This document shows, piece after piece, positions 1,965-21,039 of a stretch of 21,039 nt of DNA (the first letter of the stretch is position 1; every line of letters starts with the position of its first letter). Origin of the DNA: a virus (lineage: Duplodnaviria > Heunggongvirae > Uroviricota > Caudoviricetes); the IMG/VR virus record IMGVR_UViG_2718218398_000002. One strand, 5' to 3'. Made by a program: the position numbers and the translations under genes. The notes below the pieces were generated by a model that saw only the letters and a program-made list of their open reading frames with translations, was not told the origin of the DNA and made no database searches.

Positions 1965-1970
1965 CATCCA

Positions 1971-2369: not shown

Positions 2370-2399
2370 AAATCATGCCATGCAGGCCAGAAACCGCCA

Positions 2400-2425: not shown

Positions 2426-2470
2426 ACGGTAAACAAGGCTGGTAACGCCGTTCAGCGTTCCGGCGATAAA

Positions 2471-3439: not shown

Positions 3440-3455
3440 CCATCAGGAGAATATA

Positions 3456-3982
3456 TGCAACATCTGAAAAATATTACCGCCGGAAACCCCAAAACCATTG
3501 AGCAGTATCAGCTTACGAAAAAAGCTGGCGTTATCTGGCTATATACAGAAGACGGTAAAAACTGGTATGACGAATTAAAAAAACTTTCAGGATGATACTT
3601 TAAAAATAGCTTATGACCAGAAGGGGATTATTCGTTGTATTGAGAAAGACGTATCAACACTTAACCCTGACGGGTTAAGTGTTGTTGAGTTACCGAATAT
3701 AACAGCCAACCGTCGCGCCGATATCTCGGGAAACTGGAAGTTTCTGGATGGTAAAGTAGTAAAGCGGGAATATACAAAACAGGAACTGCAACAGCAGGCA
3801 GAGTTACAAAAAGCCGCTTTGCTTTCCGAAGCGGAGTCTGTGATTCAACCGCTGGAACGTGCTGTCAGACTGAATATGGCAACTGATGAGGAACGCACAC
3901 GACTGGAATCATGGGAACGCTACAGCGTTATGGTCAGCCGTGTGGATACTGCAAAGCCTGAATGGCCACAGAAACCAGAATA
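3456..3982 (+). pseudogene. tail fiber assembly protein (alternative cassette tfa'), frameshifted
   Basis: SD AGGAG 6 nt before ATG 3456. N-terminus [41 protein letters not shown] parallels Tfa at 4014..4547. The frame breaks in an A7 run at 3577..3583 (one extra A relative to the in-frame reading) and homology continues in another frame to ...[13 protein letters not shown]. Confidence 0.75.
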
Positions 3983-3992
3983 ACAACAAATT

Positions 3993-4017
3993 AAGGCCCG
4001 TACGGGCCTTTTCTTAT
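3993..4017. terminator. hairpin between the convergent tfa' and tfa genes
   Basis: aaggcccg ta cgggcctt followed by TTTTCTT on the plus strand; it sits between the two convergent stop codons. Confidence 0.5.
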
Positions 4018-4547
4018 TCTGGTGGTTCCGGGAATGTTACAGGAAGAACCGAGGTATCAGTTGTCTCAACCTGTTGCACGTATCGCATCCAGTTCATCAG
4101 TTGCTGTCTGTCTGAATCAGTGATAATCCCCAAAGTAAGCTGTGTTTGCCAGAACTGCGTTTTTTCTCTGGCCTGCTGTAATAATATTTTTTTCTGGTTT
4201 TCCGTCTGTAGGCGCAACTCTTCTTCGGTATATACACGTTTAATGACTGCGCCATCTTTAAACATCCATTTACCTGAGTCGTCAGCACGCCGGTTGGCGG
4301 TAATATCAGGAATCTCAACGACGCTATAACCTTCAGGGTTAAGTGTGGAGGCATCTTTGGTTATGGCAACAATAATATTATTTTCATCGTAAACAATCTT
4401 TATGGTGTCTGGCTGAAAGTTTTTCACTTCCTCATACCAGTTTTTTCCGTCCTCAGAGTAAAGCCAGATAACTCCGTGTTTCTTTGTTAACTCATACTGT
4501 TCCAGTGTTTTAGCATTACCCGCTTTTATGTTCTTTAAGTGCATCAT
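4014..4547 (-). CDS. tfa: tail fiber assembly protein
   Basis: 177-aa intact ORF immediately downstream of the fiber gene, ending in the Tfa-type ...FPEPPE C-terminus and paralogous to the frameshifted tfa'. Confidence 0.85.
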
Positions 4548-4548
4548 A

Positions 4549-7374
4549 TTAAACGCTCGCTACATTATACCAGGTGCCATTTATATACTTTTGAACGGGT
4601 CTGTAATAAACGCCCGCTATATTATCGGCAGAGTTAGACCCTGTATCCTGAACATTAATACCAGACAATACATGACCTGAAGGGCACTGGAAATTCCATG
4701 TTTGCCAGTTGTTCACTCCATAATATTGCTGTGAACCAAGTCGAACATCTTTCACATAACGGGAATCAAAGTTACCGTAATCCGAGGGGTTAACACGCCC
4801 TGTAATATTTATGGTTTTATTACTTTGAATGCTTCCGGAGACAAAGCGCATAACATGGACGTTATTAGCATAAACATCCAGATTACCATCGCCATTTTGT
4901 TTAAAGCCCGTGTCATTATCACCCAATACAATCGAATTACCGCCAAGAGCACTGGATGTTCCGATACCCAGTGCACCATTCAGTTGACCACCAGATAACG
5001 GCAGTGCACCAACATCTCCTGCTGAAGGCTTTCTGGTGGTGGTGTAAAATTCGGACCAGTCGGCTTCAAAACCATAACCATCACGGGCTGAACGATAAAA
5101 AATACCGCCATTTTTATAATTAATCCGAAACTGAGCTGCAGGACAACTTCCTTCTCCCATATAAAAATGAATAATTAACGTTGATGCACCACTAATAGTT
5201 GCGTTATAGGCTCCGCTACTCCAGTTCCATCCAACTGCTTTATCATTCGCAACGGTGCTTCCTGTTTTCCCTAAGGCAAACGCACCAACATGACTTGCTT
5301 TTAATGTGATATCGGAGGAACCATCAAAAGCCACATTGCTTATTTTCCTGGCAGTTTTTAATTTTGCAGCTGTAGAAGCATTGCCGGATAGTTCACCAGA
5401 AAGGCCACCGCTGAATGTTTGTCGATTAGTCCAGGTATTCGCTGTACTGAGTAACGGTATTTTCTCCCCGCTTGTGCCGAGTTCTCGTAAACCGAGGTAT
5501 TCGATAACGGCGGCAACGGTCGATTTCGCAAGAATATCCCGCCCAACTTTTGTCAGGGTTGCCAGACTGGCAACATCATTCCCCGTAAAATACGGAAACC
5601 TGTCTGCCGCAGTAGCAAGCCCGGCCAGCGCCGTCAGGGTGGCATCTTTCGGTTGCTTACCCGCAAGCGCGCTAGTCATGGTGGTCGCAAAATTCGGGTC
5701 GTTGCCCAACGCCGCAGCCAGCTCGTTCAGCGTATTCAGTGCGTCAGGCGACGAGTCCACGAGGGCAGCGATCGCAGCCATAACATAAGCCGTGCTTGCG
5801 ATTTGGGTATTATTCGTTCCCTGTCGCGCAGTTGGTGTTGTTGGCGTTCCGGTCAGTGCAGGACTATTTAAGGGCGCTTTCTTGTTCGTTTCACCCATTA
5901 CCGCCTTAACCGCTTTTGGCGTTGCCGCCAGTGACTCGGAAGTGCTGTTGGTCGCACTGCTGAGCTGTACTATCCCCTTTTTCGTCGTGCTCGCATCCTC
6001 AAGCGCCACGGCGGATGCAATATCCTCTGCCCGTTTTGCCGCTGTCTCGGCGCGCGTTGCCGCGGATTCCGCCGTACTTTTGCTCTGAGCTGCCGCCGTC
6101 GCACTGCCAGCTGCCTCTGTCGCCTTCGTGGATGCCGTCGTGGCGCTGCCCTTTGCTGCTGACGCCTGTCTGGTCGCCTCATCTTTTGAAGCAGACGCAG
6201 ATGATGCCGATGACGCCGCTGAACTGGCTGACGATGCGGCTGCCGCCTTAGAGGAAGCAGCATTGTCTGCTGAAGTCTTTGCATTTGTTTCAGAGGTTTT
6301 TGCTGCAGAAGCAGACCTCGCTGCTGCAGTGGCTTGCTCAGTGGCTTTGCCAGCCTTCGTTGTGGCTGTTGAAGCGGATGATGCGGCGCTTTCTGCCGAT
6401 TTTCCGGCGGCGGTGGCACTGGCTGAGGCCTGCCCGGCACTTGTTGACGCGGCACTGGCAGATAATGCAGCCGCTGTTTTTGAACCTGCCGCAGCTGAGG
6501 CGCTCTGTCCCGCTGCTGTTTCAGAAGACTTAGCGTTCGTCTCGGACGTTTTTGCCGCCTTCGCGGAATTTCCTGCCGCCGTTGCCGAGGAAGCTGCACT
6601 ACTGGCACTTGATGATGCATTCGTTTCTGAAGATTTCGCTGCCTCTTTTGAGGCCGCCGCACCCCGTGCCGAGGTGGCAGCTTCTGACGCCTTCGTGGTC
6701 GCTGTGGATGCAGAAGTGGCTGCCGATTTTTGTGATGCTGCGGCATTCGTTTCTGACGTTTTCGCGGCACTGGCGCTGGTAGCTGCCGCGCTTTTTGATG
6801 ACTCTGCAGCAGCAGCACTTTTTGCTGCTTCACGGGCCTTTGTCGATGCCGTTCCTGCGCTGGAAGACGCTGACTGAGCCGACGACGCGGCCTGTCCGGC
6901 TGACGTGCTGGCGGCACGTGATGAGGCTGCAGCATCGGTTGCATGAGTTGCCGCCTCGCTGGCTGATGCACTGGCATCGCTGGCTGATTTTTTCGCGGCT
7001 GCCGTATTCTGTGCAACCGCGGAGGCGTTACGTGACACCTCTTCTACCATCTGCTCAAAGCGGCGCAGTGCCTCCGGTCGTACATCATCCTCCGTCATGG
7101 CACCGAGAAAATCATTCAGCGTACCTGGTCTGGAACCTTCATAGACGGTAATGGTCCCGGCATGTGAAGGCGGAAAACCTTCAACCAGCAGGGTGACGCT
7201 GTACTGACCATGCTCAACATCCATGCTGTAACGTCCGGCTTCATCCGGATTTTCAGAGGCCACCGTGTTCACCACCACCGTGCTGCTGGTTCGTCTGGCC
7301 TTCAGCACAATGGTGCAGTTCTGTACTGGTTTTCCTGTGCCATCTTTAAGCACGCCAGAAATTTTTACTGTCAT
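4549..7374 (-). CDS. stf: side tail fiber protein, lambda Stf-like N-terminus with an invertible-cassette C-terminus
   Basis: 941-aa intact ORF with RBS GGTGGA. N-terminus [26 protein letters not shown]... and the long Ala/Ser/Thr-rich repeat region resemble lambda Stf as recalled. The C-terminal ~316 aa lie inside the invertible segment and end in [18 protein letters not shown]. Confidence 0.9.
5482..5507. repeat. gix/pix-like 26-bp recombination site inside stf (right boundary of the invertible segment)
   Basis: TTCTCGTAAACCGAGGTATTCGATAA matches the reverse complement of the 2400..2425 site at 22 of 26 positions with an identical central AAACCGAGGT core. It encodes ...[11 protein letters not shown]... 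at the constant/variable junction of the fiber. Confidence 0.65.
5990..7010 (-). repeat. imperfect tandem repeats encoding the Ala/Ser/Thr-rich low-complexity region of the fiber
   Basis: Repeated peptide units such as [10 protein letters not shown] and [21 protein letters not shown]-rich and repetitive DNA that also produces long spurious ORFs in other frames (5970..7016 minus, 6128..6877 plus). Confidence 0.7.
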
Positions 7375-7388
7375 ACTTTTCCACCAAT

Positions 7389-7420
7389 AAAAAAAGCCCG
7401 CAGCAGTGACGCCACGGGCT
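7389..7420 (-). terminator. intrinsic terminator downstream of lom
   Basis: Stem agcccg...cgggct followed on the minus strand by a U7 tract; located between the lom stop and the stf RBS. Confidence 0.5.
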
Positions 7421-7520
7421 TCAGGACAGTGTAACTTTACGTTTCCTCAAACGCAGTTCACCCCATAAGGTGGATGAACCTGCGTATCATAACAATATTT
7501 ACAGAAGATAAATCGGCGTC

Positions 7521-7750
7521 TGTTGTCAGAAACGGTATCCGATACCAACAATAAATGCATCCGTTCGCCAGTCGCCACTACCGGAACCTTCATAAGCAAG
7601 GTCAATGGTCACGGATTCGGTCGGGTTAAACTGCACGCCAGCCCCCCACGCCAGAGACGTGTTGCTGTGGCGACCGTCATCACTTCCGGTCAGCACATCG
7701 TGCGTTTTCCCCTTGTTGTCAGTTACGCGGAGATAATCCCCGGAGAAAGT
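7521..7750 (-). pseudogene. lom: lom (Ail/Lom-family outer membrane protein) 3' fragment, separated by the IS insertion
   Basis: Minus-strand translation ...SGDYLRVTDNKGKTHDVLTGSDDGRHSNTSLAWGAGVQFNPTESVTIDLAYEGSGSGDWRTDAFIVGIGYRF then stop, matching the lambda Lom C-terminus. Confidence 0.85.
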
Positions 7751-7836
7751 TGCGTATTACCGTGAAGGAGATCGGTGAGTAACATCGATGGAGATCGGTT
7801 CGTGTCACTTTCACAGAACCGTTTTTTAAATTACCT

Positions 7837-8586
7837 TCACTGATCTCCTTCGGTCAACGGAGATTGTATTTTCCGCATTGATTCTCCTTTAAGTTCGATC
7901 TTGATACTGCCATGAACCAGTCGATCTAGGATGGCATCCGCATGTGTGGAGTCTCCGATCATTTTGTACCAGTTTTCCACCGGCAACTGGCTCACTACGA
8001 TGATTGAGCCTCGTTGGTACATCAGATCCACTATTTCCAGCAGGTCGCTACGCTGTTCTGATGAGAGAGGTTCCAGCCCCCAGTCATCCAGAAGCAGCAG
8101 ATCGCTATTATTCAGCCTGGTCAAAAGTTTGCTGTATCTTCCATCAGCATGCCCCTGATAGCACTGTTCCATCAGCGCTTTAAGGCGATAATAGTAGACC
8201 TTGTATCCCTGTCGGCAGGCATTATGACCAAGTGCACATGCCAGGAACGTTTTACCGCTGCCGGTGGCCCCGGTCAGTAAAATATTTTGTTTCAGGGTTA
8301 ACCAGTTTCCCTGACTGAGTGAACGGATGAGGGCCCTGTCCAGCCCTCTATTGTTACGATAATCCAGCTTTGATAACTCAGCATTAAGTCTGAACCGTGC
8401 ATGTTTGATCAGACGCTCTGCCTTCCTGTTTTCACGGCAGGTTAGTTCTTCTGCTGTCAGTAATGACAGGCGTTCTTCGAAGCCCAGCTCCTGGTATGTG
8501 CCCGGTTGAGCAAGTTGCTTTTTAAGCGCATCACGGAAGCCGGTGAGTTTAAGTGCGGTCAGTTGTTCGTAAAGATGATTCATCAT
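7837..8586 (-). CDS. istB: IS21-family transposition helper ATPase IstB
   Basis: 249-aa ORF with a Walker A motif (LTGATGSGKTFLACALG) and Walker B (LLLLDDWG), typical of IstB. Confidence 0.85.
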   Translation of the reverse strand: MMNHLYEQLTALKLTGFRDALKKQLAQPGTYQELGFEERLSLLTAEELTCRENRKAERLIKHARFRLNAELSKLDYRNNRGLDRALIRSLSQGNWLTLKQNILLTGATGSGKTFLACALGHNACRQGYKVYYYRLKALMEQCYQGHADGRYSKLLTRLNNSDLLLLDDWGLEPLSSEQRSDLLEIVDLMYQRGSIIVVSQLPVENWYKMIGDSTHADAILDRLVHGSIKIELKGESMRKIQSPLTEGDQ

Positions 8587-8597
8587 TGGATCCCGTA

Positions 8598-10139
8598 TCA
8601 GTGGTAATACTCACTGCCGCGTACGTTTTCGTGTTCCATCGTGGATAACAGATCTGGTTTTGGATCCTGAACAGGTTGTTTATCCAGACCTTTTTCCAGG
8701 ATCGATTTAATACCTGACAGACGCCATACCTTTGTTTTCAGAGCTCTTGCACATGCTGCATTAAGTCTGGCTTTACTGTATTTTTTATGAAGGTTCAGGA
8801 GTCCAAGGCAGAAGCGATAGCTTTGTTCCGGATGTGGACGAGAGTTCAGTATATGAAGCACATAACTATGAGTTTCACTGCCTATGTGCCCCGCCCATTC
8901 CAGAAGACGCTCTGGCGTCCAGGTGGCATGCTGTCGATGAGCTTCAGGCATGTGCTCGTTGCGGGTACTGTAGCCATAAGTACGCTTGCGCGGGTGCACA
9001 GCAACCTCCTGCCCCTGATTGAAGAGTCTTACCAGTTCTCCGGAGATCCATGCTTCCAGTTGCTGGCCTAACAGCGAACATGGAACCGAGTAGTAATGTT
9101 TGTCGATTTCCACGTGGTAATCGGCATGAACTCTGACTTTCTTCACCAGGGTGTAACTGTAACTGGCTTCAGGAAGAGGCTTCAGTGCGGGTTTATCAAG
9201 CTGGATGAAGAGTTCTGCACGTGAATAACCCAACTTCTGCATTATTTTGTTATTCAGTCTTTCCAGCAACTCCCGAATGCGCTGATTAAGCGATGCAAGG
9301 CTGTAGAAGATCTCATGCCTGATTCGGGCCATGATCCAGCGTTCAACAACCTGAACGCCAACTTCAGCTTTGGCTTTATCTTTCGGTTTACGTGGCCGCG
9401 CAGGCAAAACTGCGACATTATAATGCTCAAGCATCTGCTGGTAGGTAGGGTTAACGTCAGGATCATACTTACATGCCCTGGATGTGGCGCTTTTCAGATT
9501 GTCCGGAACAACAAGTTCAGGAACGCCACCCAACCACTGGAAGCAGCGAACATGACTCATCACCCAGTCTTCAAGCTGCTGAGACCAGGTGGCCTCTGCC
9601 CATGTGTAACTTGATGCCCCGAGAACAGCTACGATGACCTGAGCAGTTCTTATTTCTCCGGTCTCAGGGTCGGTAACGCCAACGGTAGGTCCACAGTAAT
9701 CAACGAAAAGTTTTTCGCCAGCTTTATGTACCTGACGCATTGATGGTGAAGTGGTTTTGAGCTATTCACGGTACATCCGGCAGTAATGGTTATAGCTGTA
9801 AAAACCGCCTGGATTACGCTCACAGTATTCTTCCCAGAGTAGCTGCAGCGTCACGCATTTATTACGCAGTTCCCGGTGTACTGTAGCCCAGTCAGGCAGA
9901 GAGTGCTTCTTCATCTTAACCTGGGTCTGAAGGAACGCATGTTTTAGTTTTGTATCATCCCATCCTGTAGGTAAGGGCCACTGCTTTATGCCAAGTTGAG
10001 CCGCCCGATTAGCATATCTGGATACAACGGAAGGGGAGATTGCAAGACTACGACCAATTTGTCGATGGCTGAGTCCAACACCGTATTTAAGCCTAAGAAT
10101 TTCTTTAAGTTTTCTCATAGAAATTGGAACTGTTGGCAT
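8598..10139 (-). pseudogene. istA: IS21-family transposase IstA, interrupted by an in-frame TAG
   Basis: The N-terminal HTH ORF (9762..10139, 125 aa) and the DDE-domain ORF (8598..9740, 380 aa) are in the same frame, separated only by an amber codon at 9762..9764 (...[19 protein letters not shown]...). Confidence 0.65.
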
Positions 10140-10332
10140 AGGTATCCTTTACCGGAATGGCAAAAGATACAGATCAACACACCTGTGAAGTTCCAATAAC
10201 ATTGATGGAGATCACTGAATAACAAAATGAGTCAAAAGTGATCTCCATCGATGTTATTCAGCGATCTGTTCAAATGTTATTACCCGATCTCGATGGAAGT
10301 TATTGAGTGATCTCCTTTCATGAAAATACGCA

Positions 10333-10712
10333 AAAGTCGACACACGGCTGTAAGCCACACCCGCCATCGCATACGCGCTGAACCATTCATTCACGCGTAC
10401 AGACGGCCCCGCCATCACGCTGAACCAGCGGTTACGCACGGAATCTTCATGCCAGCGGGTATCGCTGTAGCGCGTTTTTTGCTCATCCTCAGCATTGGCA
10501 TAACTGAAGGACGTAATCAGCCCCAGCGCGTCCGTAAACTCATAACGGTATTTCACGTTAATCCCGTTCAGATCATCACTACCGGGAACGTTCGTCGAGG
10601 CATGGAGATACCCCGCGCTCAGCGTGGACTGATGTTCTGCTGCACTCGCTGGCGTAGCAGCGGCGACCTGCCAGACTACTGCGGACAAAATAACAGCACA
10701 TAATTTACGCAT
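10333..10712 (-). pseudogene. lom: lom 5' fragment (signal peptide and N-terminal beta-barrel portion)
   Basis: MRKLCAVILSAVVWQVAAATPASAAEHQSTLSAGYLHASTN...AYSRVSTF matches the lambda Lom N-terminus up to the IS junction. SD GAGAGG precedes the ATG. Confidence 0.85.
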
Positions 10713-10737
10713 AATTACCTCTCGCTTTTCTGCAATA

Positions 10738-10761
10738 AAAAAGGCGCCATTTCTGGCGCCC
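10738..10761 (-). terminator. intrinsic terminator between J and lom
   Basis: Perfect stem ggcgcc / ggcgcc around a 6-nt loop, followed on the minus strand by UUUUUUAUU. Confidence 0.6.
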
Positions 10762-10779
10762 GTATCTGGGTTATAAAAT

Positions 10780-13700
10780 TCAGCTAATCGTGATGCCTGC
10801 AGTGGCTTTCTTCATCACCACAACCAGCAAATCGCTGATACTTGCTGTGGGATACCAGTTATTTACCAGCCATGCTGACACCGAAAACTCCAGTGTCATG
10901 TGACCGTGACCGGCAGGCATATCAATAACACCACTGTAAATCAGCGTATTATCCAGCGCGGTACGGTTATAAATTTCAGCACCGTTTTTCCGCACTATCA
11001 GACGGCATGAGGAGTAAATATCAGTATGCTCTTTCTCATGTTTAGCGCCGCTGAATGCCACCGCCGGAATAACAATCTGCCGGTCAAACGGCTGATCGTC
11101 ATAAACCCTGACGGTAATGGTTCCTGATGGCCACCGCTCCGGTGCACGGGAGTCCCGGGGGAAAGCTTTGCCCACTGTTTTAACGAGATCGCCTTCAATC
11201 TGGTTCGCGGACAATTTTCCCAGAACCCGACAGTTCTCGTTAATCGTGACGTTGTTGAGCGTCCCGGAGTTCGCATTCACGTTACCGCTGATATCGGCAT
11301 TTTTCGCCGTCAGCCGCCCGTCCGGTGTCAGGGAAAATGCCGGAGGATTACCGCCGCTGGTAATGGTGGGAGCCGTCAGATATTTCAGGAACACTTCATT
11401 CATAAATATCTGATCGCCCTGACCAACAAACATCGGCTTTGTGTTGCCATTCGCAGGATTAATCATCGCAATCCTGTCTGCCGCCAGCAGCACCTGACTC
11501 TGCATTCCTGCTGGCGTATTCTCAATACCGGCACCGATACCCGCAATATAAAGGCGTCCGTCCTGCATCTGCTGCAGTTTCACGGCCCACATGCTGTTCA
11601 GGTTATTATTTGTATCAACCTGAACTTTCTGTATCTGCTGGATTGCCGCACTCTGATTTTCCAGTTTTTTATTGACGGTCTGCGTGATTTCATTGCTGAC
11701 ATTCGTAATGGACGTCCTGATTTCAGCCAGGTCCGGCGCAAGCTGACCGTTATCAATCTGCGTCCACAGCTCCTGGGCCAGATGTGTTTTCCCGATTTCT
11801 CCTTTGAAAAAATCCAGGTAACCTTCCGCATCATCGCTCGCCCGACCGACAGCCTCCACGAATGCCGATTTGCCAACAGTATTCACACTGCGGATATAAA
11901 AATAATAATCATGGCCCGGTTTGATATTGATACTGGCAGCTATCCAGTACAGCGCCGAGCCAAGATAGCGGGCTGCGGTTTCAACCTGCCTGATATCCGC
12001 AATCCGCTTTTCCGAGAACCAGAACTCAAACTGTACCGTCGGGTCATAAACGGCAAGATGTGGCGTTGCGGTTATCTGAAAATAGCCCGGCGTCAGCTCA
12101 ATCCGCGACGGTGCTGCCGGTGCGGCAATCCGGAAGGTGGTGGTGGCAGGTTCACCCTGCTGGCCATAGCTGTTTATCGCCCGCACCGTCAGGGTGTATT
12201 CCCCGAGCGGCAGGCCGCTGAAACGGTGCTCCGTGTCTGCGGTGATGGCGGTGGTCACCAGTCTGGCATCCGTTCCCTTACCACTGGTCAGGCGCAGACT
12301 GAAGCGCACACCCTTCACCACCCGCGGCGTGTCCATTTCGCCTGCGCCAGATACTGGCCGTCAGCTGCGCTCACCTCCACCGTCAGGTGCTGCACTGCCG
12401 GTGGGATGACGCTGTTCAGGGAACCTGACTGCGGCTCAAAGCGGGCACCGTTATCCACGATGGCTTCTTTTTCCGGTACGTGCTGCACCGCCGTGATGGC
12501 AAAGGTGCCGTCCGTGTTTTCCCGGATGGAGACACAGCGGAACAGGCGACGGCGCAGTGACGGCAGGGAGAGTCCCCCACACCCCGTATGTCTCCACACC
12601 ATCAGGCAGGGTACTGACCTGTATCCGGTCCGGCGCGGGGTGTGCGGTGATGTCCACACTCACCGGCTTACCGCTGCCGTTAATCAGGTTCACCGCCGAT
12701 GTACCTGTCTCCGGCAGGGTAACCTCACGGTCCAGCGTCAGGGTGCGGGTGGCAGCATCAATGGACAGGACACGTCCGCCGGTCAGGGTCCCGGCATAGT
12801 CATTATCACAGATTTCAATAATGTCACCGGGTGTGTGCCGCAGCCCCTGAGACCCGAGCGTGAAATCCACCGTCTGCGTTTCCAGCAGTTCGGTCTTTAT
12901 CACCCACAGTCCGGCACGGTGGGCCTGACCGCGGCTGGTACAGCCGAACGCGTCCATCTTCAGCAGGTTGCGTCCGTAGCGCAGTATGGCTTCCGGGTCT
13001 TCCACCAGTTCCGTGGAGGTCTGCCAGCCGTTCTGCGGGTCGGTGTAATTCACCTCCACCGCCGTGTGCCGGTCCTTCAGGGCACTGAAGCTGTAGCGGA
13101 ATCCCACGCCGTTATCATCCACCACCACATCGCTGTTGGTGTACGGCCACACCACATCCGACGGGCGGTCCTGAACGAACGTCAGCGTCTGACCGTTCCA
13201 TACCGGGCATACAGCGCATCGCAGAGCAGAAATCACTGAGAACGTCCCACGCCTTACGCTGTTGTGCCAGGTACGCATTAAAGGTCATCCGCGGCTCGGT
13301 CCCCCCGAAACCATCCGGGACCGTCTGGTCGCAGTACTGCCCGATGGCATACAGCGCCCACTTGTCCACATCCGCCGCCCCCAGACGTTTTTCCCATGCC
13401 GTAGCGCGGGTGAGTCAGCATGTCCCACAGACACCAGGCCGGGTTGTTGCTGTATGCCGGTTTCAGACTGCCGTCCCAGATACCACTATACGTGCGTTTT
13501 TCCGGGTCATAGTTTGACGGCACCTGGATGATGCGACCGCGGATATGGTAGTTCACCGTCATCTGCTGGCCGCCGAACTGCTCCGCATCCACCTGCAGCC
13601 CCACAATGGCCGTGTTCGGGTAGCACTGTTTCACATCGATGATTTCGGTGTATGACGACCACAGCGTCTTATTCTGCAGCTGGTCCGTGGTGCTGTCCGC

Positions 13701-14255
13701 CGTCTCCCTGACCATCCGGATGTTAAAGGGCCGGGGAGGCAGATTATCCAGAATCACCGAGGCCAGGAACTGTGAGGTGGTCTTGCCGTTAATGGTGACG
13801 TCCTTTTCTGTCACCCAGTTACCGTTACGCTGTAACTGAATCAGCAGGCGGACGGATGCCGGGTTACGGTCACCCTTTGAGGTGGTCTCCACCAGTGACT
13901 GCACCCCGAAGGTAACCCGCAGGCGGTCAATGTTCGCGGACGTAATGGTGCGCGTCACCGGTTTTGCCTTCGTCACTTCCACGCCCAGTCCGGTTTCAGC
14001 TCCGGAGGACTCAAAGCCTTCCGGTGGTGTCTGCTCCTGCTCCCCGGCGCGCCAGACCGCCGTCACACCGTGTATCACGGGATTGCCGTCCGTGTCCGTC
14101 AGTGGGGTTTTGTTCACCAGAATACTCTGCAGTCCCTTCACCGGACCTTCTATCGGTCCCTCACCAATCGCATCAATCACGCTCATCATCTGCGTGGATT
14201 TGAGATTATCCTTCGCCTCACGAGGCGTGTGTGCCTTACCGCCACCTTTTCCCAT
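10780..14255 (-). pseudogene. J: tail tip / host specificity protein J, broken by four single-base frameshifts
   Basis: Five consecutive minus-strand ORFs (13278..14255, 13115..13369, 12451..13278, 12315..12659, 10780..12336) are collinear with lambda J from its MGKG... N-terminus onward. Each junction is a 1-bp indel in a homopolymer (near 13387..13391, 13205..13207, 12573..12577 and 12337..12338). Confidence 0.85.
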
Positions 14256-14359
14256 ACAGCCTTCCCCTGAATAAATTAACCGCCACTTGCCATTCCGTAC
14301 AGAAGTCGGATATCCTTCGCCCGAAAAGCATGAAACACATTTCTGCCATGCTAAAGAGA

Positions 14360-14393
14360 AACCCCGGTATCAGCAGATACCGGGGTTTTCTTT
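14360..14393. terminator. strong hairpin inside the I-J intergenic insert
   Basis: Perfect 11-12-bp stem accccggtatc / gataccggggt with loop agca, followed by TTTTCTTTC on the plus strand and UUUCUCUUU on the minus strand. Confidence 0.45.
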
Positions 14394-14462
14394 CATGCCC
14401 ACCGATAATCCTGTTGGTTAAAACCGGGTAATGGCATAAAAATTTCTGAATATCTTCACATT

Positions 14463-14490
14463 TTCACACACTGACTGTGGCGCTTATAAT
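14463..14490 (+). promoter_or_regulatory. near-consensus sigma70 promoter, plus strand, antisense to the tail operon
   Basis: TTCACA (14463..14468), 16-bp spacer, TATAAT (14485..14490), with an AT-rich UP-like tract just upstream (14433..14460). Confidence 0.4.
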
Positions 14491-14496
14491 TTCGCT

Positions 14497-14594
14497 GCGT
14501 TAGTGTTTTTTTGCCCGAGTAACAAAAACAACTCCTTAACATTGATCTTCATTTGTCTGTCCCCGCAGCTCCGCGATCACTGCGGGATTTTTTT
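14497..14594 (+). ncRNA. candidate ~100-nt small RNA (promoter to terminator, no ORF)
   Basis: Lies between the predicted transcription start after the TATAAT box and the intrinsic terminator at 14562..14594. Contains no ATG with an SD. Confidence 0.25.
14562..14594 (+). terminator. intrinsic terminator, plus-strand orientation, abutting the I stop codon
   Basis: Stem cccgcag...ctgcggg followed by T7 (14588..14594). On the minus strand an A-run precedes the stem, so it is not a canonical terminator for gene I. Confidence 0.5.
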
Positions 14595-14599
14595 ATGTT

Positions 14600-15282
14600 T
14601 TATCCCTGTCGCCCGATAACCACGACCGTTCCGCCCCCGCCTTCATCACGGGTGCTGATGTCCTGGGATATACGGCGGGAGCCAACCAGCATTTCCCCGT
14701 AAGGCACCGGCATCGGGTTCCCCTGGGCAATCATGTTATCCAGCGAGGAAAAGTACGTGTTCTGTCTGCCGTTATCCGTTGCGCGGTAATCCGGTGTTTT
14801 TGCCTTCGGGGCCAGCATCTGGGCCACACCGCCCAGAATCATGCTGGCTCCAAGTGAAAACAGCATCGTGGTGGCAGAAAAACCACCGGGCTGCCAGGGC
14901 TGAACCCCATAACGCCATTGATGCCCCGGCAGTGAAGAAAGAGCCCACGATGGCTGCCGCCCCCAGGCACAATCTGCAGTCCACCCTTTCCGGCCCCGGC
15001 CAGTCGCGGCACAATATGGATGACCGTTCCCTCACCCAGCTGTTCGTGAAGACGGGCGTACACCGCCTCCGGTGCCGTGTCATAACCGGCAATACGTATC
15101 TGGTACCAGCCTTCGTTCATCTGACGGCGAAAGCCCGGCACCTGTAACGACAGCGCCCGGATGGCTTCCGCTGCCGTGTTCACATACAGGCTGAGGCGGC
15201 GGCCAAATCGTTGTAAATCCCCGTGAAGGCAGATGCGTGCCAGTGGCGGTGACGCCAGACAGAATGCGTTCGTCGTTGCCAT
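14600..15282 (-). pseudogene. I: tail assembly protein I, two frameshifts
   Basis: Three overlapping minus-strand ORFs (14839..15282, 14772..15092, 14600..14866) are collinear with lambda I (ARICLxGDLQRFGRR ... AAAIxGSFFTAGA ... LFSLGASMxLGGVAQMLAPKA ... NTYFSSLDNM). Confidence 0.8.
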
Positions 15283-15922
15283 TTTTCGGAATACCTCTCC
15301 CGTTTACTCAGTTGTTCAGGCAGATGGTGAAGCAGCTCACCGTTGCCGCAGTAAATGGCGGCATGGTTCGGTACCGAAGCACCAAAGCAGCACAGCAGAA
15401 TATCGCCCGCCTGTGCAGAGGACAGGGGCACCCGGTAAAAGCCGGTGACCGCCATATTGTCCAGGTAAAGGTTCTGACCGTTGCGCCACCAGTCATCCTC
15501 GCGATGAAATCCGGCATTTCAGTCCCCGCCAGATGATAAGCATCCCGGAACAGCGTGTAACAGTCCGTCACCCCGTGCTCAAAGCGCCGTCCTGTCAGAT
15601 GTGGCACACAGCGGAATTTGTGAATGTCACCCCGGCAGACCAGCCACCAGGGCAGTGCGCTTTTTATCTGCAGCCGCCGGTCAGCCTCGCTCAGCCAGGG
15701 CAGCCCACCGGGATGACTGTGGACCAGTGCCACAATCTCCCCCTGCATCTCTGCCCGCAGCCAGTCTTCCGGTGCGATACGAAAATACGCCTCCGGCTCT
15801 GCAGAAATATTCACACAAGGGATATACCACTCCCCCTCCGACGTGCTTATCACGAAGCCGCACGACTCCGCAGGCGCACACCGCCGGGCATGCGCCAGAA
15901 TCGCTGATTCAGTCTGTGTCAT
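15180..15922 (-). pseudogene. K: tail assembly protein K (MPN/JAMM plus NlpC/P60-like), one frameshift
   Basis: MTQTESAILAHARRCAPAESCGFVIS...HSHPGG...DCYTLFRDAYHLAG then a frame break (a single-base deletion near 15505, changing TTCC to TTC in the coding sense), continuing as ...VTGFYRVPLSSAQAGD...PNHAAIYCG... in the ORF 15180..15455. Overlaps the start of I by about 100 nt. Confidence 0.8.
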
Positions 15923-15932
15923 AAACCGGGAT

Positions 15933-16631
15933 TTACTGCGAAAGTTTATTAATGGAAAGGAAACCGCCAAAATTGCCGACATTCCTGCGCAGTTCACACC
16001 CGCGCATGCACTTGCTGCATCTGTCCTTACGGATATCCGTGGTGGGGTTGTCGAACTCATCCGCCACCGCAGGACCGTTATACCCGCATTCATCTCCCCG
16101 GTAATCCCACATACAGGTGTTCGCCAGCATGATGCGACCGGGAAACAGCGCCCCATCCGTCTCGGTCGGTGTAGCCAGCACAAACGAGGCCGTCATGGCT
16201 GTCAGCTGCGACATCTGCTCCACCACCCAGCGGTCACTCAGCTCCTGCTCCGGGTCCGCCTCCGGATTGCCCGCAACGAAATTCACCGCATCCAGAAAAC
16301 GGGCATACACCCGGCGGCGGACCACCGTGGCCCCCACCAGACTCTGCAGGTCTTCCGCCATCCCGGTGACCAGACCGAACAGATTGGACACCGTCAGCGA
16401 CGGTCTGGCACTGCTGCCCTTCCCGCTCATCTCAAAACCGCTGCCGTCAATCGGGTATGCCTGATATTGCCGCCCCTGCCAGGTGACCGGCTCCCCTTTT
16501 TCATTCAGCTCATTACAGAAAAAATACCGCTCACCGCCCTGTACCGTCAGGTCGATTTCCCAGAGTACCACCCGCGGTGACTGCTCTGACTTAACCGACT
16601 CGTTCAGACTTTCTTCGCGAATATCCTGCAT
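15933..16631 (-). CDS. L: tail tip assembly protein L
   Basis: 232-aa intact ORF; MQDIREESLNE...GNFGGFLSINKLSQ is collinear with lambda L throughout. Confidence 0.9.
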   Translation of the reverse strand: MQDIREESLNESVKSEQSPRVVLWEIDLTVQGGERYFFCNELNEKGEPVTWQGRQYQAYPIDGSGFEMSGKGSSARPSLTVSNLFGLVTGMAEDLQSLVGATVVRRRVYARFLDAVNFVAGNPEADPEQELSDRWVVEQMSQLTAMTASFVLATPTETDGALFPGRIMLANTCMWDYRGDECGYNGPAVADEFDNPTTDIRKDRCSKCMRGCELRRNVGNFGGFLSINKLSQ

Positions 16632-16972
16632 CAGTTCACCACCTGCTCAATCGTACAACTGAAATCACTGTGCCTGGCGTTATCTGTGACGCTCCACTCC
16701 CGGCACACCACCCTCACCGTCAGGTTATGTTTCGGCGGTCGCCACAAAAAGGCACGGTAACCACCATGCCACGATAAAAATTCATCCAGCCAGCGCCGGG
16801 TTGGTTCATCCGTCACCCGGAACACCGCCTGAAACGTCTTCAGTCTGGCATTAAGTCCCGTCGGTCGGCGCTGTTCATAACCGTCACCAAACCGAACCCT
16901 CACCACCGACGGTTTCTCACTCACCTGCATCCCTTCACGCGGGACCAGATGCAGCGTTTTTATCTCAGCCAC
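16631..16972 (-). CDS. M: minor tail protein M
   Basis: 113-aa intact ORF with the lambda M-like core VRFGDGYEQR and C-terminus IEQVVN; its stop overlaps the L start. Confidence 0.85.
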   Translation of the reverse strand: MAEIKTLHLVPREGMQVSEKPSVVRVRFGDGYEQRRPTGLNARLKTFQAVFRVTDEPTRRWLDEFLSWHGGYRAFLWRPPKHNLTVRVVCREWSVTDNARHSDFSCTIEQVVN

Positions 16973-19900
16973 TCAGCATTCCTCCGTCACGTCGCATGGA
17001 CAGCATCACCGCCTGCACCCGCTGGTCAATCAGCTGCACAAGACTGCCTGCCGCCTCCGCCCCTATCTGTCCGTTAGCCCCGTCATTCTGAATGGCGATG
17101 TGGTAGACCGGGGAATACACCAGACCGGCACTGCCGTTCATACTGCCCACCGCGCGTACGCCCAGCGAGCCATCCGCCGCCCGGGTCAGGGGCATAATGG
17201 CTTCAGGTCCGGCTTCCCCCATCAGCCCGGCCCCTTTTGCAAACGCAAAGTACGTGGGCGTGTCCACAATGCTGTTGCTGTACGCACTCAGGTTTGCCGA
17301 GGTATACACGCCGCCTTTTGCATTGGCCACCGCACCGCCCAGCCAGTCACCAATGCTGCCAATAAATCCTCCCGCACCGGACATACCGTTTGCCGCCGTC
17401 TTAATTCCGTTGACAATCGCAGCATTCATAAGAAACTTTTGAGATTTCCTGCAGTACGGATGAGGCCCAGTTGCGCCATTCCACTTTGTTTCCGTTCAGC
17501 ATCTCCGTGATGTTATTCACCATCCCTGAGATACCCTCCGTCGCAAGCTGTGCTGCCTGTGAGGCGTAATCGGATGCATTGTCCACCCAGTTACTGAGCC
17601 CCTCCTGCAAGCCTTTCTGCCAGTCCGCACGCTGCGCATCCGATTCGGCATAAAAGGCTGCCTGGTCCTTAAGGCGTTCGCTCAGATACTGCGCGTTCTG
17701 TGCCCGTGCCTGTCTGTAAAAATCCTCACTGATATCCCCGGTCTGATACTGAGACTGAAGGTCCGCATCCTTCTGGCGGAAGCTGTCACGGATCTGCTGC
17801 AACTCCCGCATGCGTTCCCTGGCTCGTTCTCCCTGCCCGTATCCCAGCAGTTCGGCTTCATTTGATGCACGCGCAGCCACATTATCATTCTTCAGGGTCT
17901 CTTCCCGGGATCGCAACTGTTCCCGGATTTTTTGCTGGTCAATCAGGGCCGCGTTACGCAGCAGTTCCTGCTTCTGCATCTCCGTCAGGGTTTTCAGTTC
18001 GCCCTGCGCAGTCTGGTACTTCAGCTTCGCCAGCTCTGTATTCTGACCCGCCAGTGCCAGTTGCTCTTTCTGCTGCTTCAGTAGCCGGGAAAAACTGTCT
18101 TCCGCTTTTTCCGTCTCTGATTTTCCACCCCGGGATTTAGGTTTGTTCGCCTCGTTATTACGCCAGGCTTCCAGAGCATTACTGATATAACGCTGTCTCG
18201 CCTCCTGATACGAATCCCCCACAAAACCAAGGTCATCCGCCGCATACCCCAGCCGGGCACGCTCTTTTTCCTCCCCTTCAGTCGGGACAGGGCCAGCTCA
18301 CGTTCTGTTTTTGTCAGGGCGCTCTGCTGTTTATCATCCAGGGTGGCCTGCGGCAGCCGTAACGGTACATTCACCAGTCCCTGACGCTGCTGAAGCAGTT
18401 CATTCCCCAGCCCCAGCAGACGGTTGAATTCCGTATGCTGACCGTTCATAACCAGCATGGACTGGTACACCTATTCTGCTCTGCCGCCTGCTGACGAATT
18501 AACGCCACACGACGGTCTTCCAGCCCGGCAAGCACATCCTGAATGGACTGCGCTTTTTCCTGCATCTGTGCCAGACGGGACTGCTCAACGGCAAGCTGCT
18601 CTGTTGCCTGAGAAAGCCCTTCCGTCACGGTCTTCACCGATGTCAGATGGTTTATCATGAATCCGTCACCGGTTGTCCAGCCAGGGTTAGCCAGAACATA
18701 CTGATATCCAGCGATTTTTTCCTGCAGGGATTTCACCCGGCTGGCCTGTTCATCAATCAGCCGGTTCTGCTCTGCCAGCGCCGCCCGTGTTCGTCCTTCA
18801 TTATCTGAGGCTTCAGGCAAAGACATTGACGGCGTTTTATGCGCGATTTCATCTATCGTCAGCATAAGTGCATACTGGCGCGCTGACTCCCTGGCCTGCT
18901 CCTGATTCTGGTACAGCGTATACCATGCTGCTGCCCCAGCATCACCAGTCCGGGTACGCCACCAACCAGTCCCAACGCACCAGTCATCAGACGTGAGCCC
19001 ACCGCCGTTGTACTGTTCAGCTCATTCTGGGCTGCGGTTCTGGCAGCAATATTTCTGTTCAGGCGTTCCTGTGTGGCCGCCAGACGGGCTTCTGCAGCAA
19101 TCTGCATCTCCGTCCCGCGGCTGCCGCCACAGCCTGCTGTGCACGGTACACGGCTGCCCTTGCCCGCGCCGTGGCAATCTGCGTCCCCCTGAGCTGTGCT
19201 TCCGCCAGTGCCACTTCATTACGTGCTGCCGTCACAAGTCCTGCCGTGGCAGCAGACACCCGCTCCGGAGGCCATATTGCCAAAGTACCGGGCAACCCCG
19301 ACGGCAACCAGCGCCCCCGCGGCTGTTGCCACATTATCAATATTACCGGCAACACCGTTCAGCACGCCGGAGAGCGTTTTCGTCGCTCCGCTGGCTTCAT
19401 TCGCGCCACCCACCCAGGCCATAAAGGCGTTTTCCACCTTTGTGATCCCGTCAGAGACCGTTTCCGGCATGGCGGCATATTCATCACGCAATACCCCCAG
19501 CTGGCTGATTAACGCAGGAACGACTTTATCCGCCGTCAGTTTGCCGTCGTCCGCCATCGCCTTAAGGTCTTTACGGGCCACGCCCATACCCGCAGCCAGT
19601 GCACGTACGATCCGGTCTCCGCTTTCATTGACCGAATTAAATTCCTCACCGCGTAACACACCCTGTGCCAGCGCCTGGCTGAACTGGGTGATCACCGAGC
19701 CCGCCTCTGCCGTACTGGCACCGGAGATTTTCAGCCCCGTGGAAATGGCCTCCGTCACCTTCAGCACATCATCAGCACTGTAACCATATTCACGCATTGA
19801 GGCTGCCGAGCGGGCAAACAGGGCCGCATTATCTGAAAATGCCGTGCCCGTCCGCTGGCTGATATCCATCAGCACTTTCTGTGATGACGAAAATTCATCG

Positions 19901-20216
19901 GATGACTGCGACGCGCCTGTTTCAGTCGGGCATTCACGGAACTCCATTCATCGGCCAGAGAAATCAGGTGTCCGGTGGCAAAGGCACCTGCAAATGCCCC
20001 CGCCGTTCCGGCAGCTGAAGCGCGGATTTCCGTCAACTGGCTGTTCAGCTCAGCCAGGGCGCGTCGCTGCACCCGGGCGACTGCGGCAGCCTGACGCCCG
20101 CCATTCTGCAGGGTCCGGTAATATTCACTGCCCATGCGGGAAGCCCGCTGGATCTCCGACTGGAATGACTGCGAATTTGCCGAAATTTTGATAATCAGTT
20201 CACGTAACGTCGCCAT
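16965..20216 (-). pseudogene. H: tail tape measure protein H, at least seven frameshifts
   Basis: Chain of eight overlapping minus-strand ORFs from 19869..20216 (N-terminus MATLRELIIKISANSQSFQSEIQRA) to 16965..17429 (C-terminal Gly-rich region resembling the lambda H C-terminus). Total span about 3.25 kb. Confidence 0.8.
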
Positions 20217-20263
20217 TCACCTTTCTCCGGGCGTAAAAAAACCGCCTCAGCGGTTCTCATCAT

Positions 20264-20766
20264 TCATGACTGTGCTGCGAAGCTCAGCGCGTCTTCCAGC
20301 GCCGCAAACGGATCCACCTCCGGCTTATCCTCATCCTCGCCCCAGCAGAGCATGGCGTCCTTCAGTGCAACATTCATCCCCTGTGCCCCAAAAACCGCTT
20401 TCACGATCTGTGCATTACGGATATCCCCGCGCTCATCACCCAGCGGGGATACCCTGTCGAACTCCATCCACATCATCGCCTCGCTCACACTCAGGCTGTG
20501 CCGCAGTTCGGATAAGGTGCGCCCCAGACGGAGCGCAAGTCGCATCAGAAAGCGAATTTCCGGGCGGGCTACTTTTTTCTGGCCGACTCTGCATCAGCGA
20601 TCAGTTCCAGTGCCTGACGCAGCAACCGGGCATGTACCGGACCATAGACGGCCAGCACCTGCTCACGGTCGTCCGGAGCGAACACCCGCTGCAGATCCGT
20701 ATCACACAGGACATCGCAGAACAGCGTCACATCCGCTTCTAGGTTACGGCGGGTTTTCGCCACCAC
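20264..20766 (-). CDS. tail assembly chaperone G with -1 frameshift extension (G/GT pair)
   Basis: The zero-frame ORF 20569..20766 ends ...ESARKK then TAG. The -1 frame continues as VARPEIRFLMRLALRLGRTLSELRHSL...AAQS to the stop at 20264, just upstream of the tape measure start. The junction is a canonical slippery heptamer. The zero-frame ORF may extend upstream through the TGA at 20794. Confidence 0.6.
20572..20578 (-). promoter_or_regulatory. programmed -1 ribosomal frameshift slippery heptamer A_AAA_AAG
   Basis: The mRNA reads aga AAA AAG TAG; the X_XXY_YYZ heptamer is in the correct phase and immediately precedes the zero-frame stop. Confidence 0.55.
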
Positions 20767-20793
20767 CGACAGGGTATCGTCATCCTCTCTCCA

Positions 20794-21039
20794 TCACCAT
20801 TGAGCACTTCCTGCCACAGATACCAGGCCTCTGCCGAAGGCTGATTCGCCTTCATACGACGACCGGTCTTTTTCTACAGCGACTTTAGAGCTGGTTTCTG
20901 GCGGTAGTTCCACCAGTTCGCGCAGATAGTTAGTCTGGGCGAGGTCCAGCTCCGTCCAGCCACCGCGTGGCAGACCTTTTGGCAGTGGGATATCACCGTA
21001 ACGAACGCGAATCAGGCGGCTCACCTGCACACCAACCGC
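20794..21039 (-). CDS. partial phage tail gene running off the window end (5' part of G interrupted by TGA, or 3' end of the preceding tail gene)
   Basis: The frame is open to the window edge (...[33 protein letters not shown]...GSAQW then stop). Its TGA stop is in the same frame as the G ORF start 9 codons downstream. Confidence 0.35.

What the first reader, a model, noticed from the sequence alone, without database searches (positions are those of the whole stretch)
20264..20796. Canonical A_AAA_AAG -1 frameshift site joining the tail chaperone ORFs, plus an in-frame TGA just upstream
The zero-frame ORF ends ...AGA AAA AAG TAG. A -1 slip on A_AAA_AAG continues into a ~100-aa extension that stops 48 nt before the tape measure start. 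This is the conserved G/GT arrangement of long-tailed phages, but the heptamer is the dnaX-type A_AAA_AAG, not the G_GGA_AAG I recall for lambda. The ORF running off the window (20794..21039) is also in the same frame as the G ORF and separated from it only by a TGA, with 9 sense codons before the GTG start. Either G is about 150+ aa with a nonsense change, or this is a coincidental phase match with the preceding tail gene.
Basis: partly seen in the sequence, partly recalled or inferred. Interest (0 to 1): 0.45.

Follow-up and report, generated by a model that had tools for sequence, protein, structure and literature searches.

The report
Known phage tail-chaperone frameshift site, truncated copy
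The A_AAA_AAG slip site is the already catalogued -1 frameshift signal of HK97-type E. coli prophage tail chaperones, while the "in-frame TGA" comes from a break-point with the host gene rluB plus small insertions that are probably sequencing errors.

Summary
The heptamer A_AAA_AAG lies at 20578..20572 and TAG abuts it at 20571..20569. A -1 ORF of 102 codons ends at 20264, 47 nt before the tape-measure ATG (20216).

The frameshift reading is right but not new. The upstream ORF belongs to PF06222 (HK97 gp13 type, not lambda G's PF06894). The extension belongs to PF06223 (T). The same site is in E. coli O157 Sakai ECs1801, listed as a "true" -1 PRF case by Sharma et al. 2014. Antonov et al. 2013 measured 6-7% frameshifting for two genes of an HK97-like chaperone cluster. 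The site is present in 97 of 99 related viral contigs. No conserved stimulatory structure was found.

The TGA reading is wrong. Intact G is 124 aa, and only codons 36-124 are present here. The ORF running off the window is chromosomal rluB, joined to mid-G at about 20842. A +1 nt insertion in rluB and a +2 nt insertion in G restore the phase, and the TGA is an out-of-frame GGT GAT. The window carries 21 indel events against one substitution relative to ST131 genomes, so these are probably assembly errors. The junction was found nowhere else.

Ordinary and already known.

The parts
20843..21039 (-). 3' fragment of the chromosomal gene rluB (codons about 202-267 of 291), with one extra G at about 20864 that shifts its frame
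   Evidence: 99.5% identity to annotated rluB in 5422 of 5426 complete E. coli genomes. The reference CDS is shown. The insertion was located (btop 175G-23).
20841..20842 (-). Break-point rluB|G. The dinucleotide AG is shared by both parents. It joins reference positions 1502177 and 1469468 of NZ_CP023844.1, a tandem-duplication or circle type of junction with a 32,710-bp unit
   Evidence: The rluB match ends at query base 199 and the phage match starts at 198. The junction is absent from complete E. coli genomes, GTDB representatives, metagenomes, phages and plasmids.
20569..20842 (-). Truncated tail assembly chaperone gene G (codons 36-124 plus stop; HK97 gp13 type, PF06222), broken by a private 2-nt GA insertion at 20791-20790
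   Evidence: Alignment to intact 375-nt G genes of ST131 and Sakai Sp9. Pfam PF06222 with E 1.7e-61 for intact G; the 65-aa ORF covers profile positions 61-124 only. The insertion variant has 0 hits against 105 viral contigs for the wild-type pattern.
20794..20796 (-). The 'in-frame TGA'. It is out-of-frame in true G (part of GGT GAT) and comes into phase only because of the 2-nt insertion just downstream
20572..20578 (-). Slippery heptamer A_AAA_AAG in X_XXY_YYZ phase, formed by the last two sense codons of G
   Evidence: It is identical in ST131 and in Sakai ECs1801. It is present at the same offset in 97 of 99 related viral contigs. Divergent homologs carry A_AAA_AAG or G_GGA_AAG at the same place.
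20569..20571 (-). Zero-frame TAG stop directly abutting the heptamer
20264..20575 (-). T segment in the -1 frame: 102 codons after the slip, PF06223 Phage_tail_T. RefSeq annotates only its last 93 codons, from the ATG at 20545
   Evidence: Translation. Pfam E 1.6e-18. phrog_14766 spans G and T as one protein. Reference annotation.
20233..20258 (-). Hairpin plus U-run between T and the tape-measure gene (terminator-like)
   Evidence: Fold. Both arms change together in Sakai Sp9. HK544 has a terminator annotated at the equivalent place. The consensus scan did not flag it.
16965..20216 (-). Tape-measure gene (1080 aa in the reference), fragmented in the window by 11 small indel events

Best explanation
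The heptamer is the programmed -1 ribosomal frameshift signal of an HK97-type tail assembly chaperone pair (gp13/gp14, the analogue of lambda G/GT). The pair belongs to the lambdoid prophage that sits at ompW in ST131-like E. coli and is the positional counterpart of O157 Sakai Sp9. In an intact copy most ribosomes stop at the TAG and make the 124-aa chaperone. A few percent slip back one base on A_AAA_AAG, where the P-site and A-site tRNA-Lys re-pair to AAA AAA. These ribosomes read GTA GCC... and add the 102-aa T domain, giving a G-T fusion of about 226 aa. By analogy with lambda, the G part binds the tape measure and the T part recruits the major tail protein, so the fixed G:GT ratio is set by slip efficiency. 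The heptamer itself is the main determinant. There is no SD-like element and no conserved downstream structure. The abutting stop codon may contribute, but it is not conserved family-wide. In this window the upstream half of the gene is missing. The sequence jumps from rluB codon 267 into G codon 36, and small indels (+1 in rluB, +2 in G, many in the tape-measure gene) litter the region. The phase match and the TGA follow from an in-frame break-point plus 3 inserted bases. They are not biology of G. The indels are most likely long-read assembly errors, and the junction is either a misassembly or a private structural variant. Shown here: the sequence, the homology, the conservation and the origin of the TGA. 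Taken from literature and analogy: the slip efficiency and the chaperone role.
For: Anatomy. Family: intact G matches PF06222 over its full length (E 1.7e-61) and the extension matches PF06223 (E 1.6e-18). phrog_14766, with 224 positions, aligns G to positions 2-122 and T to 124-224, so databases hold the fused product. Gene order in intact relatives is major tail, G, T, tape measure. Conservation: the DNA around the site is identical in ST131 and Sakai Sp9 ECs1801/1802. AAAAAAGTAG lies at the expected offset in 97 of 99 viral contigs, and 95 of them have a 102-codon extension. Homologs at 33-68% amino-acid identity (606R7, Pm34, phiE125, OS31 with A_AAA_AAG; mEp390 with G_GGA_AAG) all keep an in-phase heptamer at the end of G, a -1 extension of 97-105 aa and the motif F(L/M)MxLALR(L/M)G(R/K)TL. 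Coding conservation therefore runs upstream of the ATG that RefSeq uses for T. The HK544 record annotates a 'programmed frameshift' join. Literature: Sharma et al. 2014 (PMC4066793) Table S4 lists cluster A_AAA_AAG_25, ECs1801 'tail assembly chaperone; [true]', with 53 genes and no SD. Their Table S8 gives a hairpin no better than background, ddG 0.020. They measured the bare heptamer at 0.29%, 4.3% with IS911 stimulators and 39% with the IS3 pseudoknot. Antonov et al. 2013 (PMC3711429) measured 6-7% for two genes of the HK97-like tail chaperone cluster. The lambda mechanism and the 30:1 ratio are from Atkins et al. 2016. Structure: the downstream 109 nt fold with z = -0.78, and the alignment fold finds only a 7-bp hairpin about 41 nt away with no compensatory change. 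TGA and junction. Removing the private +G and +GA gives the continuous reading ...KDRRRMKANQ|[10 protein letters not shown]...ARKK*. Of the 22 differences from the ST131 reference in the collinear stretch, 21 are indel events and one is a substitution. Most are homopolymer or dinucleotide length changes.
Against: No protein or ribosome data exist for this exact sequence. The 6-7% figure is for unnamed members of the cluster. I link that cluster to this gene only through Sharma's cross-reference of A_AAA_AAG_25 to GeneTack cluster #10 and through the HK97 similarity. RefSeq annotates T as a separate 93-aa CDS. In the window as written, no ORF with a credible start reaches the heptamer in the zero frame, so the signal cannot work here unless the indels are errors. 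The error interpretation does not explain why indels stop abruptly at window 7827, inside ISEc12, while 1..7826 is clean. I could not find the source assembly.
Confidence: 0.9

Rival explanations
1. T is an independent gene translated from its own ATG at 20545 (MRLALRLG..., 93 aa), as RefSeq annotates it. On this view the heptamer is incidental.
For: PGAP and several phage records list 'tail assembly protein T' as a separate CDS. The bare heptamer occurs at chance frequency in the window.
Against: No SD-like sequence precedes that ATG; the upstream sequence is ...GGAAATTCGCTTTCTGATG. In homologs the Met is an internal residue of a conserved F-L/M-M motif, and the -1 frame stays open back to the heptamer in every family member examined. 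An in-phase slippery heptamer is kept at the same spot across 33-68% identical homologs even when its sequence changes. A PHROG family and the HK544 record hold the fused product. Reporter assays on two genes of an HK97-like chaperone cluster gave 6-7%.
Confidence: 0.04
2. The frame change is made by RNA polymerase slippage on the A6 run, or by a genuine DNA-level A6/A7 polymorphism, rather than by the ribosome.
For: Poly-A runs can support transcriptional realignment. One of 99 viral contigs has A5 instead of A6.
Against: Productive transcriptional slippage is reported for runs of more than 7 A (text quoted from Antonov et al.), and this run has six. The motif is phased exactly as X_XXY_YYZ. 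In relatives it is replaced by G_GGA_AAG, which has no long homopolymer. 97 of 99 contigs have exactly A6G.
Confidence: 0.03
3. The rluB|G junction and the indels are real. On this view the copy is a decaying prophage remnant, or the novel joint of a 32.7-kb tandem duplication or circle, so the TGA and frame breaks reflect true pseudogenisation.
For: The junction has a 2-nt microhomology typical of illegitimate recombination and is in-frame once the two insertions are removed. Another assembly, CP054249.1 'pBone4_2', presents a circular contig of about 33 kb from the same locus.
Against: 21 indel events against 1 substitution, mostly homopolymer or dinucleotide length changes, is the signature of long-read consensus error and not of natural decay. 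The junction and the +GA variant were found in no other sequence searched. pBone4_2 is itself about 1% indel-ridden and has a different joint.
Confidence: 0.2

Closest known systems
E. coli O157:H7 Sakai prophage Sp9 ECs1801/ECs1802 (cluster A_AAA_AAG_25 of Sharma et al. 2014, cross-referenced there to GeneTack cluster #10)
   Same: About 97% identical DNA. The heptamer, the abutting TAG and about 100 nt of flank are identical. The gene order and the chromosomal site next to ompW/trp are the same.
   Different: Sp9 has the complete 124-aa G preceded by the major tail gene. The window copy starts at codon 36, fused to rluB, and carries a 2-nt insertion.
Phage HK97 gp13/gp14 and HK97-like phages (HK544, mEp234, HK633; Hendrixvirinae)
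   Same: Same Pfam families (PF06222 + PF06223). G is 63% identical. There is a -1 frameshift near the end of G, and the HK544 record annotates it as a programmed frameshift.
   Different: HK544 shifts on ...CGG GAA AAG... (G_GAA_AAG / A_AAG) 15 nt before its stop, not on A_AAA_AAG abutting the stop. It also has an extra small ORF between T and the tape-measure gene.
Phage lambda G/GT
   Same: Same position between the major tail and tape-measure genes. Same -1 slip a few codons before the end of G. The T domain is in the same Pfam family, PF06223. The chaperone mechanism is presumed the same.
   Different: The heptamer is G_GGA_AAG, 15 nt before the stop. G is in PF06894, not PF06222. BLASTP detects no similarity for G or T. 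The lambda extension is 144 aa against 102 aa here.
E. coli dnaX frameshift signal
   Same: Same heptamer, A_AAA_AAG, read by tRNA-Lys.
   Different: dnaX has an upstream SD-like element and a downstream stem-loop and shifts at about 50% to a shorter product. This site has neither stimulator, the expected efficiency is a few percent, and the product is longer.

Membership tests
G/GT-type tail assembly chaperone with conserved -1 PRF (long-tailed dsDNA phages) | Two overlapping ORFs lying between the major tail gene and the tape-measure gene | tested here: inconclusive
   The tape-measure gene follows directly (ATG at 20216). In the window the upstream neighbour is rluB, not a major tail gene. 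In intact relatives 99.6% identical over the shared part, the order is major tail, G, T, tape measure.
G/GT-type tail assembly chaperone with conserved -1 PRF (long-tailed dsDNA phages) | [quoted passage not shown] | tested here: met
   A_AAA_AAG at 20578..20572, 0 nt before the TAG. It is conserved in 97 of 99 viral contigs and positionally conserved in divergent homologs.
G/GT-type tail assembly chaperone with conserved -1 PRF (long-tailed dsDNA phages) | Downstream ORF in the -1 frame, open from the slip site, with coding conservation upstream of any start codon | tested here: met
   A 102-codon -1 ORF runs from the heptamer. The F(L/M)M motif spans the annotated ATG in all homologs.
G/GT-type tail assembly chaperone with conserved -1 PRF (long-tailed dsDNA phages) | Fusion protein actually made at a low fixed ratio and required for tail assembly | not testable with these tools
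   Literature only. Reporter assays on two genes of an HK97-like chaperone cluster gave 6-7%. The lambda 30:1 ratio is.
Pfam PF06222 Phage_TAC_1 / PF06223 Phage_tail_T | Score above the gathering threshold | tested here: met
   Intact G scores 206 bits (cut-off 25). The window fragment scores 97.9 bits but covers profile positions 61-124 only. The T extension scores 67.4 bits (cut-off 25.9).
Lambda G family (Pfam PF06894 Phage_TAC_2) | Sequence similarity to lambda G | tested here: not met
   No PF06894 hit. BLASTP against lambda G gives E = 6.5. Lambda G itself hits PF06894 only.
dnaX-type tripartite frameshift signal | Upstream SD-like element 6-17 nt before the heptamer | tested here: not met
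   The upstream sequence GATGCAGAGTCGGCCAG has no GGAG/GAGG/AGGA. Sharma Table S4 scores SD = N for this cluster.
dnaX-type tripartite frameshift signal | Stable, conserved stem-loop 5-9 nt downstream | tested here: not met
   Fold z = -0.78. The only shared hairpin starts about 41 nt downstream, has 0 compensatory pairs and is broken in 2 of 7 homologs. Sharma Table S8 gives ddG 0.020.
rluB (23S rRNA pseudouridine 2605 synthase) for the ORF running off the window | Identity to annotated rluB | tested here: met
   199 nt at 99.5% with one extra base, under the rluB CDS in 5422 genomes. After removing the extra G the translation equals RluB residues 202-267.

The most novel reading that the evidence does not exclude
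The rluB|G joint is real. It would be the novel junction of a 32.7-kb tandem duplication or excised circle spanning the prophage tail genes, the trp operon and rluB. Without the two probable sequencing-error insertions, it encodes an in-frame RluB(1-267)-G(36-124) chimera, expressed from the rluB promoter and still followed by a live A_AAA_AAG slip site. A second assembly (pBone4_2) shows a circle-type contig of similar size, about 33 kb, from the same locus. That could hint at recurrent amplification next to this prophage.
Probability: 0.15. Interest if true: 0.3.

Novelty: already known. Interest (0 to 1): 0.08.

Why it matters
It matters little beyond annotation hygiene. RefSeq still lists G and T of this very common E. 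coli prophage family as two separate genes, although the fusion is well supported. About 1240 of 5426 complete genomes carry this G-T-tape-measure stretch. For the scan itself, the useful lesson is that the odd feature, the in-phase TGA, marks a break-point with a host gene and an indel-ridden stretch of assembly. It does not mark recoding or a nonsense allele.

Tried and rejected
1. BLASTP found nothing, and the relationship shows only at profile level, for T.

2. A stimulatory RNA structure. The single-sequence fold was not better than shuffles and the alignment fold showed no covariation. Rejected.

3. Finding the source contig by exact-protein look-up of two frameshifted tape-measure fragments. 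Neither is on record.

4. Looking for the junction elsewhere. There were no hits in complete E. coli genomes, GTDB representative genomes, JGI metagenomes, phage records or PLSDB.

5. Testing whether PLSDB record CP054249.1 (33.4 kb, 'circular', same locus) is the source or shares the joint. It does not. It spans topA to tail gene K/I with its own indel errors.

6. The consensus terminator scan did not flag the T-H hairpin, although folding supports it.

7. I considered the TGA as a selenocysteine or readthrough codon, or as a nonsense allele. I rejected this because it is out-of-frame in every intact G and comes into phase only through a private 2-nt insertion.

Full report
**Observation**

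The genes in this part of the window run on the minus strand. The 65-codon ORF 20766..20569 ends ...GCC AGA AAA AAG TAG. The heptamer A_AAA_AAG occupies 20578..20572 in the X_XXY_YYZ phase, and the TAG (20571..20569) abuts it. After a -1 slip the reading continues GTA GCC CGC... for 102 codons to the TGA at 20266..20264. That stop lies 47 nt before the tape-measure ATG at 20216.

The ORF running off the window (21039..20794) is in the same frame as the 65-codon ORF. A TGA (20796..20794) and nine sense codons separate it from the GTG start. The heptamer alone is not unusual, with 5 copies in the window against 4.0 expected. Context has to carry the argument.

**What the two ORFs are**

Window 1..20842 is 99.9% identical to the tail region of a lambdoid prophage found in many ST131-type E. 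coli genomes. That prophage sits next to ompW and trp, as prophage Sp9 does in O157 Sakai. In intact copies the order is major tail subunit, a 124-aa 'phage tail assembly chaperone', 'tail assembly protein T', then the tape measure.

- The intact chaperone matches Pfam PF06222 end to end (E 1.7e-61).
- The -1 extension matches PF06223, 'Minor tail protein T' (E 1.6e-18).
- PHROG 14766, a 224-position family, aligns with G over positions 2-122 and with T over 124-224, so the fused protein is already represented in phage databases.
- BLASTP finds no similarity to lambda G or T.
- Lambda G is in PF06894, while lambda T shares PF06223.

The family is therefore that of HK97 gp13/gp14. HK544 G is 63% identical, belongs to PF06222, and its record annotates a 'programmed frameshift' join.

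**Evidence that the slip is programmed**

- The DNA around the site is identical in ST131 and in Sakai Sp9 ECs1801/1802.
- Of 99 IMG/VR contigs carrying this G gene with enough flank, 97 have AAAAAAGTAG at the expected offset and 95 have a 102-codon -1 ORF.
- Homologs at only 33-68% amino-acid identity keep an in-phase slippery heptamer at the end of G. It is A_AAA_AAG in 606R7, Pm34, phiE125 and OS31, and G_GGA_AAG in mEp390 and in lambda.
- These homologs also keep a -1 ORF of 97-105 codons, and the conserved motif F(L/M)MxLALR(L/M)G(R/K)TL spans the ATG that RefSeq uses as the start of T. That argues against independent initiation, and no SD precedes that ATG.

**Stimulators**

- Stimulatory structure: the 109 nt from the heptamer fold no better than shuffles (z = -0.78).
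- Alignment fold: seven homologs share only a 7-bp hairpin about 41 nt downstream. It lies in the codons for ALRLGR, has no compensatory change and is broken in two sequences.
- SD-like element: none lies upstream.
- Abutting stop: the TAG directly after the heptamer is shared by four of the homologs but lies 24-30 nt further on in phiE125 and OS31. It may help but does not define the signal.

**Prior knowledge**

- Sharma et al. 2014 (PMC4066793), Table S4, list cluster A_AAA_AAG_25, 'ECs1801, tail assembly chaperone; [true]', with 53 genes, no SD and a longer frameshift product. Their footnote says -1 PRF 'can be safely inferred'.
- Their Table S8 gives a hairpin no better than flanking sequence (ddG 0.020), and a companion table maps the cluster to GeneTack cluster #10.
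- They measured A_AAA_AAG at 0.29% without stimulators, 4.3% with the IS911 stimulators and 39% with the IS3 pseudoknot. They note that the 3' context can raise the bare motif about 12-fold, to about 3.7%.
- Antonov et al. 2013 (PMC3711429) tested two genes of the HK97-like 'phage tail assembly chaperone' cluster in a reporter and found 6% and 7%.
- Atkins et al. 2016 summarise the lambda mechanism and its conservation among long-tailed phages.

The site is thus a documented case.

**The TGA and the 'same-frame' upstream ORF**

The first 197-199 nt of the minus-strand window (21039..20841) are not phage. They are 99.5% identical to rluB, the 23S rRNA pseudouridine synthase gene, in 5422 of 5426 complete E. 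coli genomes. Phage homology starts at 20842, inside G at codon 36, and the two parents share the dinucleotide AG. The window's 'G' therefore lacks its first 35 codons, its start and the major tail gene.

Relative to intact sequences the window has one extra G in rluB (about 20864) and an extra GA in G (20791-20790). The underlying joint is in-frame. With the three extra bases removed, the translation reads ...VEKDRRRMKANQ|[29 protein letters not shown]...ARKK*. The stretch between the insertions is read out of frame, and there the Gly-Asp codons GGT GAT supply a TGA. It is neither a nonsense mutation in a longer G nor a phase match with a tail gene.

**Real or artefact**

Over the collinear stretch the window differs from strain 4/1-1 by 21 indel events and a single substitution.

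- Most indels are homopolymer or dinucleotide length changes.
- They break the tape-measure gene into at least 8 ORFs and also hit K/I and J.
- That ratio is characteristic of long-read consensus error, not of natural decay.
- The +GA variant is found in no viral or metagenome contig, whereas the wild-type pattern occurs in 105 viral contigs.

The junction joins reference positions 1502177 and 1469468 in direct order. This is a tandem-duplication or circle type of joint with a 32,710-bp unit. It is absent from every collection searched.

Unexplained points remain:

- The indels stop abruptly at window 7827, inside ISEc12.
- A PLSDB record, CP054249.1 (pBone4_2, 33.4 kb, 'circular'), is another indel-ridden contig from the same locus with a different joint.

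I could not identify the source assembly. I rate the indels as errors at about 0.8. For the junction, misassembly is more likely than a real structural variant, but the evidence is weaker.

**Verdict**

The frameshift interpretation is correct, but the site is a previously catalogued member of the HK97-type G/GT family, and two genes of an HK97-like cluster have been assayed. In this particular window the signal sits in a truncated, frame-broken copy, so as written it cannot function. The TGA puzzle dissolves into a break-point with rluB plus small insertions. Interest is low.

Noticed in passing
window 20233..20258 (-): A hairpin plus U-run, GAGAACCGC-UGAG-GCGGUUUUUUU, lies between the T stop and the tape-measure start (54-nt fold -15.2 kcal/mol, z = -2.08). 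Sakai Sp9 has CCUGC/GCAGG in place of CCGC/GCGG, so both arms change together. The HK544 record annotates a rho-independent terminator at the equivalent place. It may be a partial terminator setting the chaperone to tape-measure transcript ratio. The consensus scan missed it.
   Followed up: partly
window 7827..20864: 21 small indel events against 1 substitution relative to ST131 strain 4/1-1, mostly homopolymer or dinucleotide length changes. They fragment the tape-measure, K/I and J genes. There are none in window 1..7826, and the boundary falls inside ISEc12. This is probably unpolished long-read consensus.
   Followed up: partly
window 20841..20842: The rluB|G junction is of tandem-duplication or circle type (32,710-bp unit containing the tail genes, the trp operon, yciO/yciQ and rluB) with 2-nt microhomology. 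It is in-frame once the private insertions are removed. It was not found in any collection searched.
   Followed up: partly
L014 (CP054249.1, pBone4_2, 1..33406): A PLSDB 'circular plasmid' of 33.4 kb is really chromosomal DNA from topA through rluB and trp to the prophage tail genes, with about 1% indels. It is a second circle-type contig of about 33 kb from the same locus, offset by about 6 kb from the window's unit.
   Followed up: partly
window 9762..9764 (-): The only substitution relative to the reference (window 9763, A for G) creates a premature stop in istA of the IS21-family element ISEc12 inserted in lom. It splits istA into ORFs 9762..10139 and 8598..9740.
   Followed up: no
window ~2394..5513: The tail-fibre segment is inverted relative to strain 4/1-1, with 27-nt overlaps at both ends, next to a truncated recombinase gene in the reference. 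It looks like a Gin/Pin-type invertible host-range segment caught in the other orientation.
   Followed up: no
L006 (HK544) 940..990; L008; L012: Some PF06222 family members lack a perfect X_XXY_YYZ heptamer. HK544 and ENT39118 have G_GAA_AAG, and Kp4885-3 has only A_AAG directly before TAA. In these phages the shift may rest on the A_AAG tetramer alone.
   Followed up: no
lambda L003 versus window G/T: The G parts of lambda and of this phage are in different Pfam families (PF06894 against PF06222), while the T parts share PF06223. The two halves of the fusion therefore have different evolutionary histories.
   Followed up: partly
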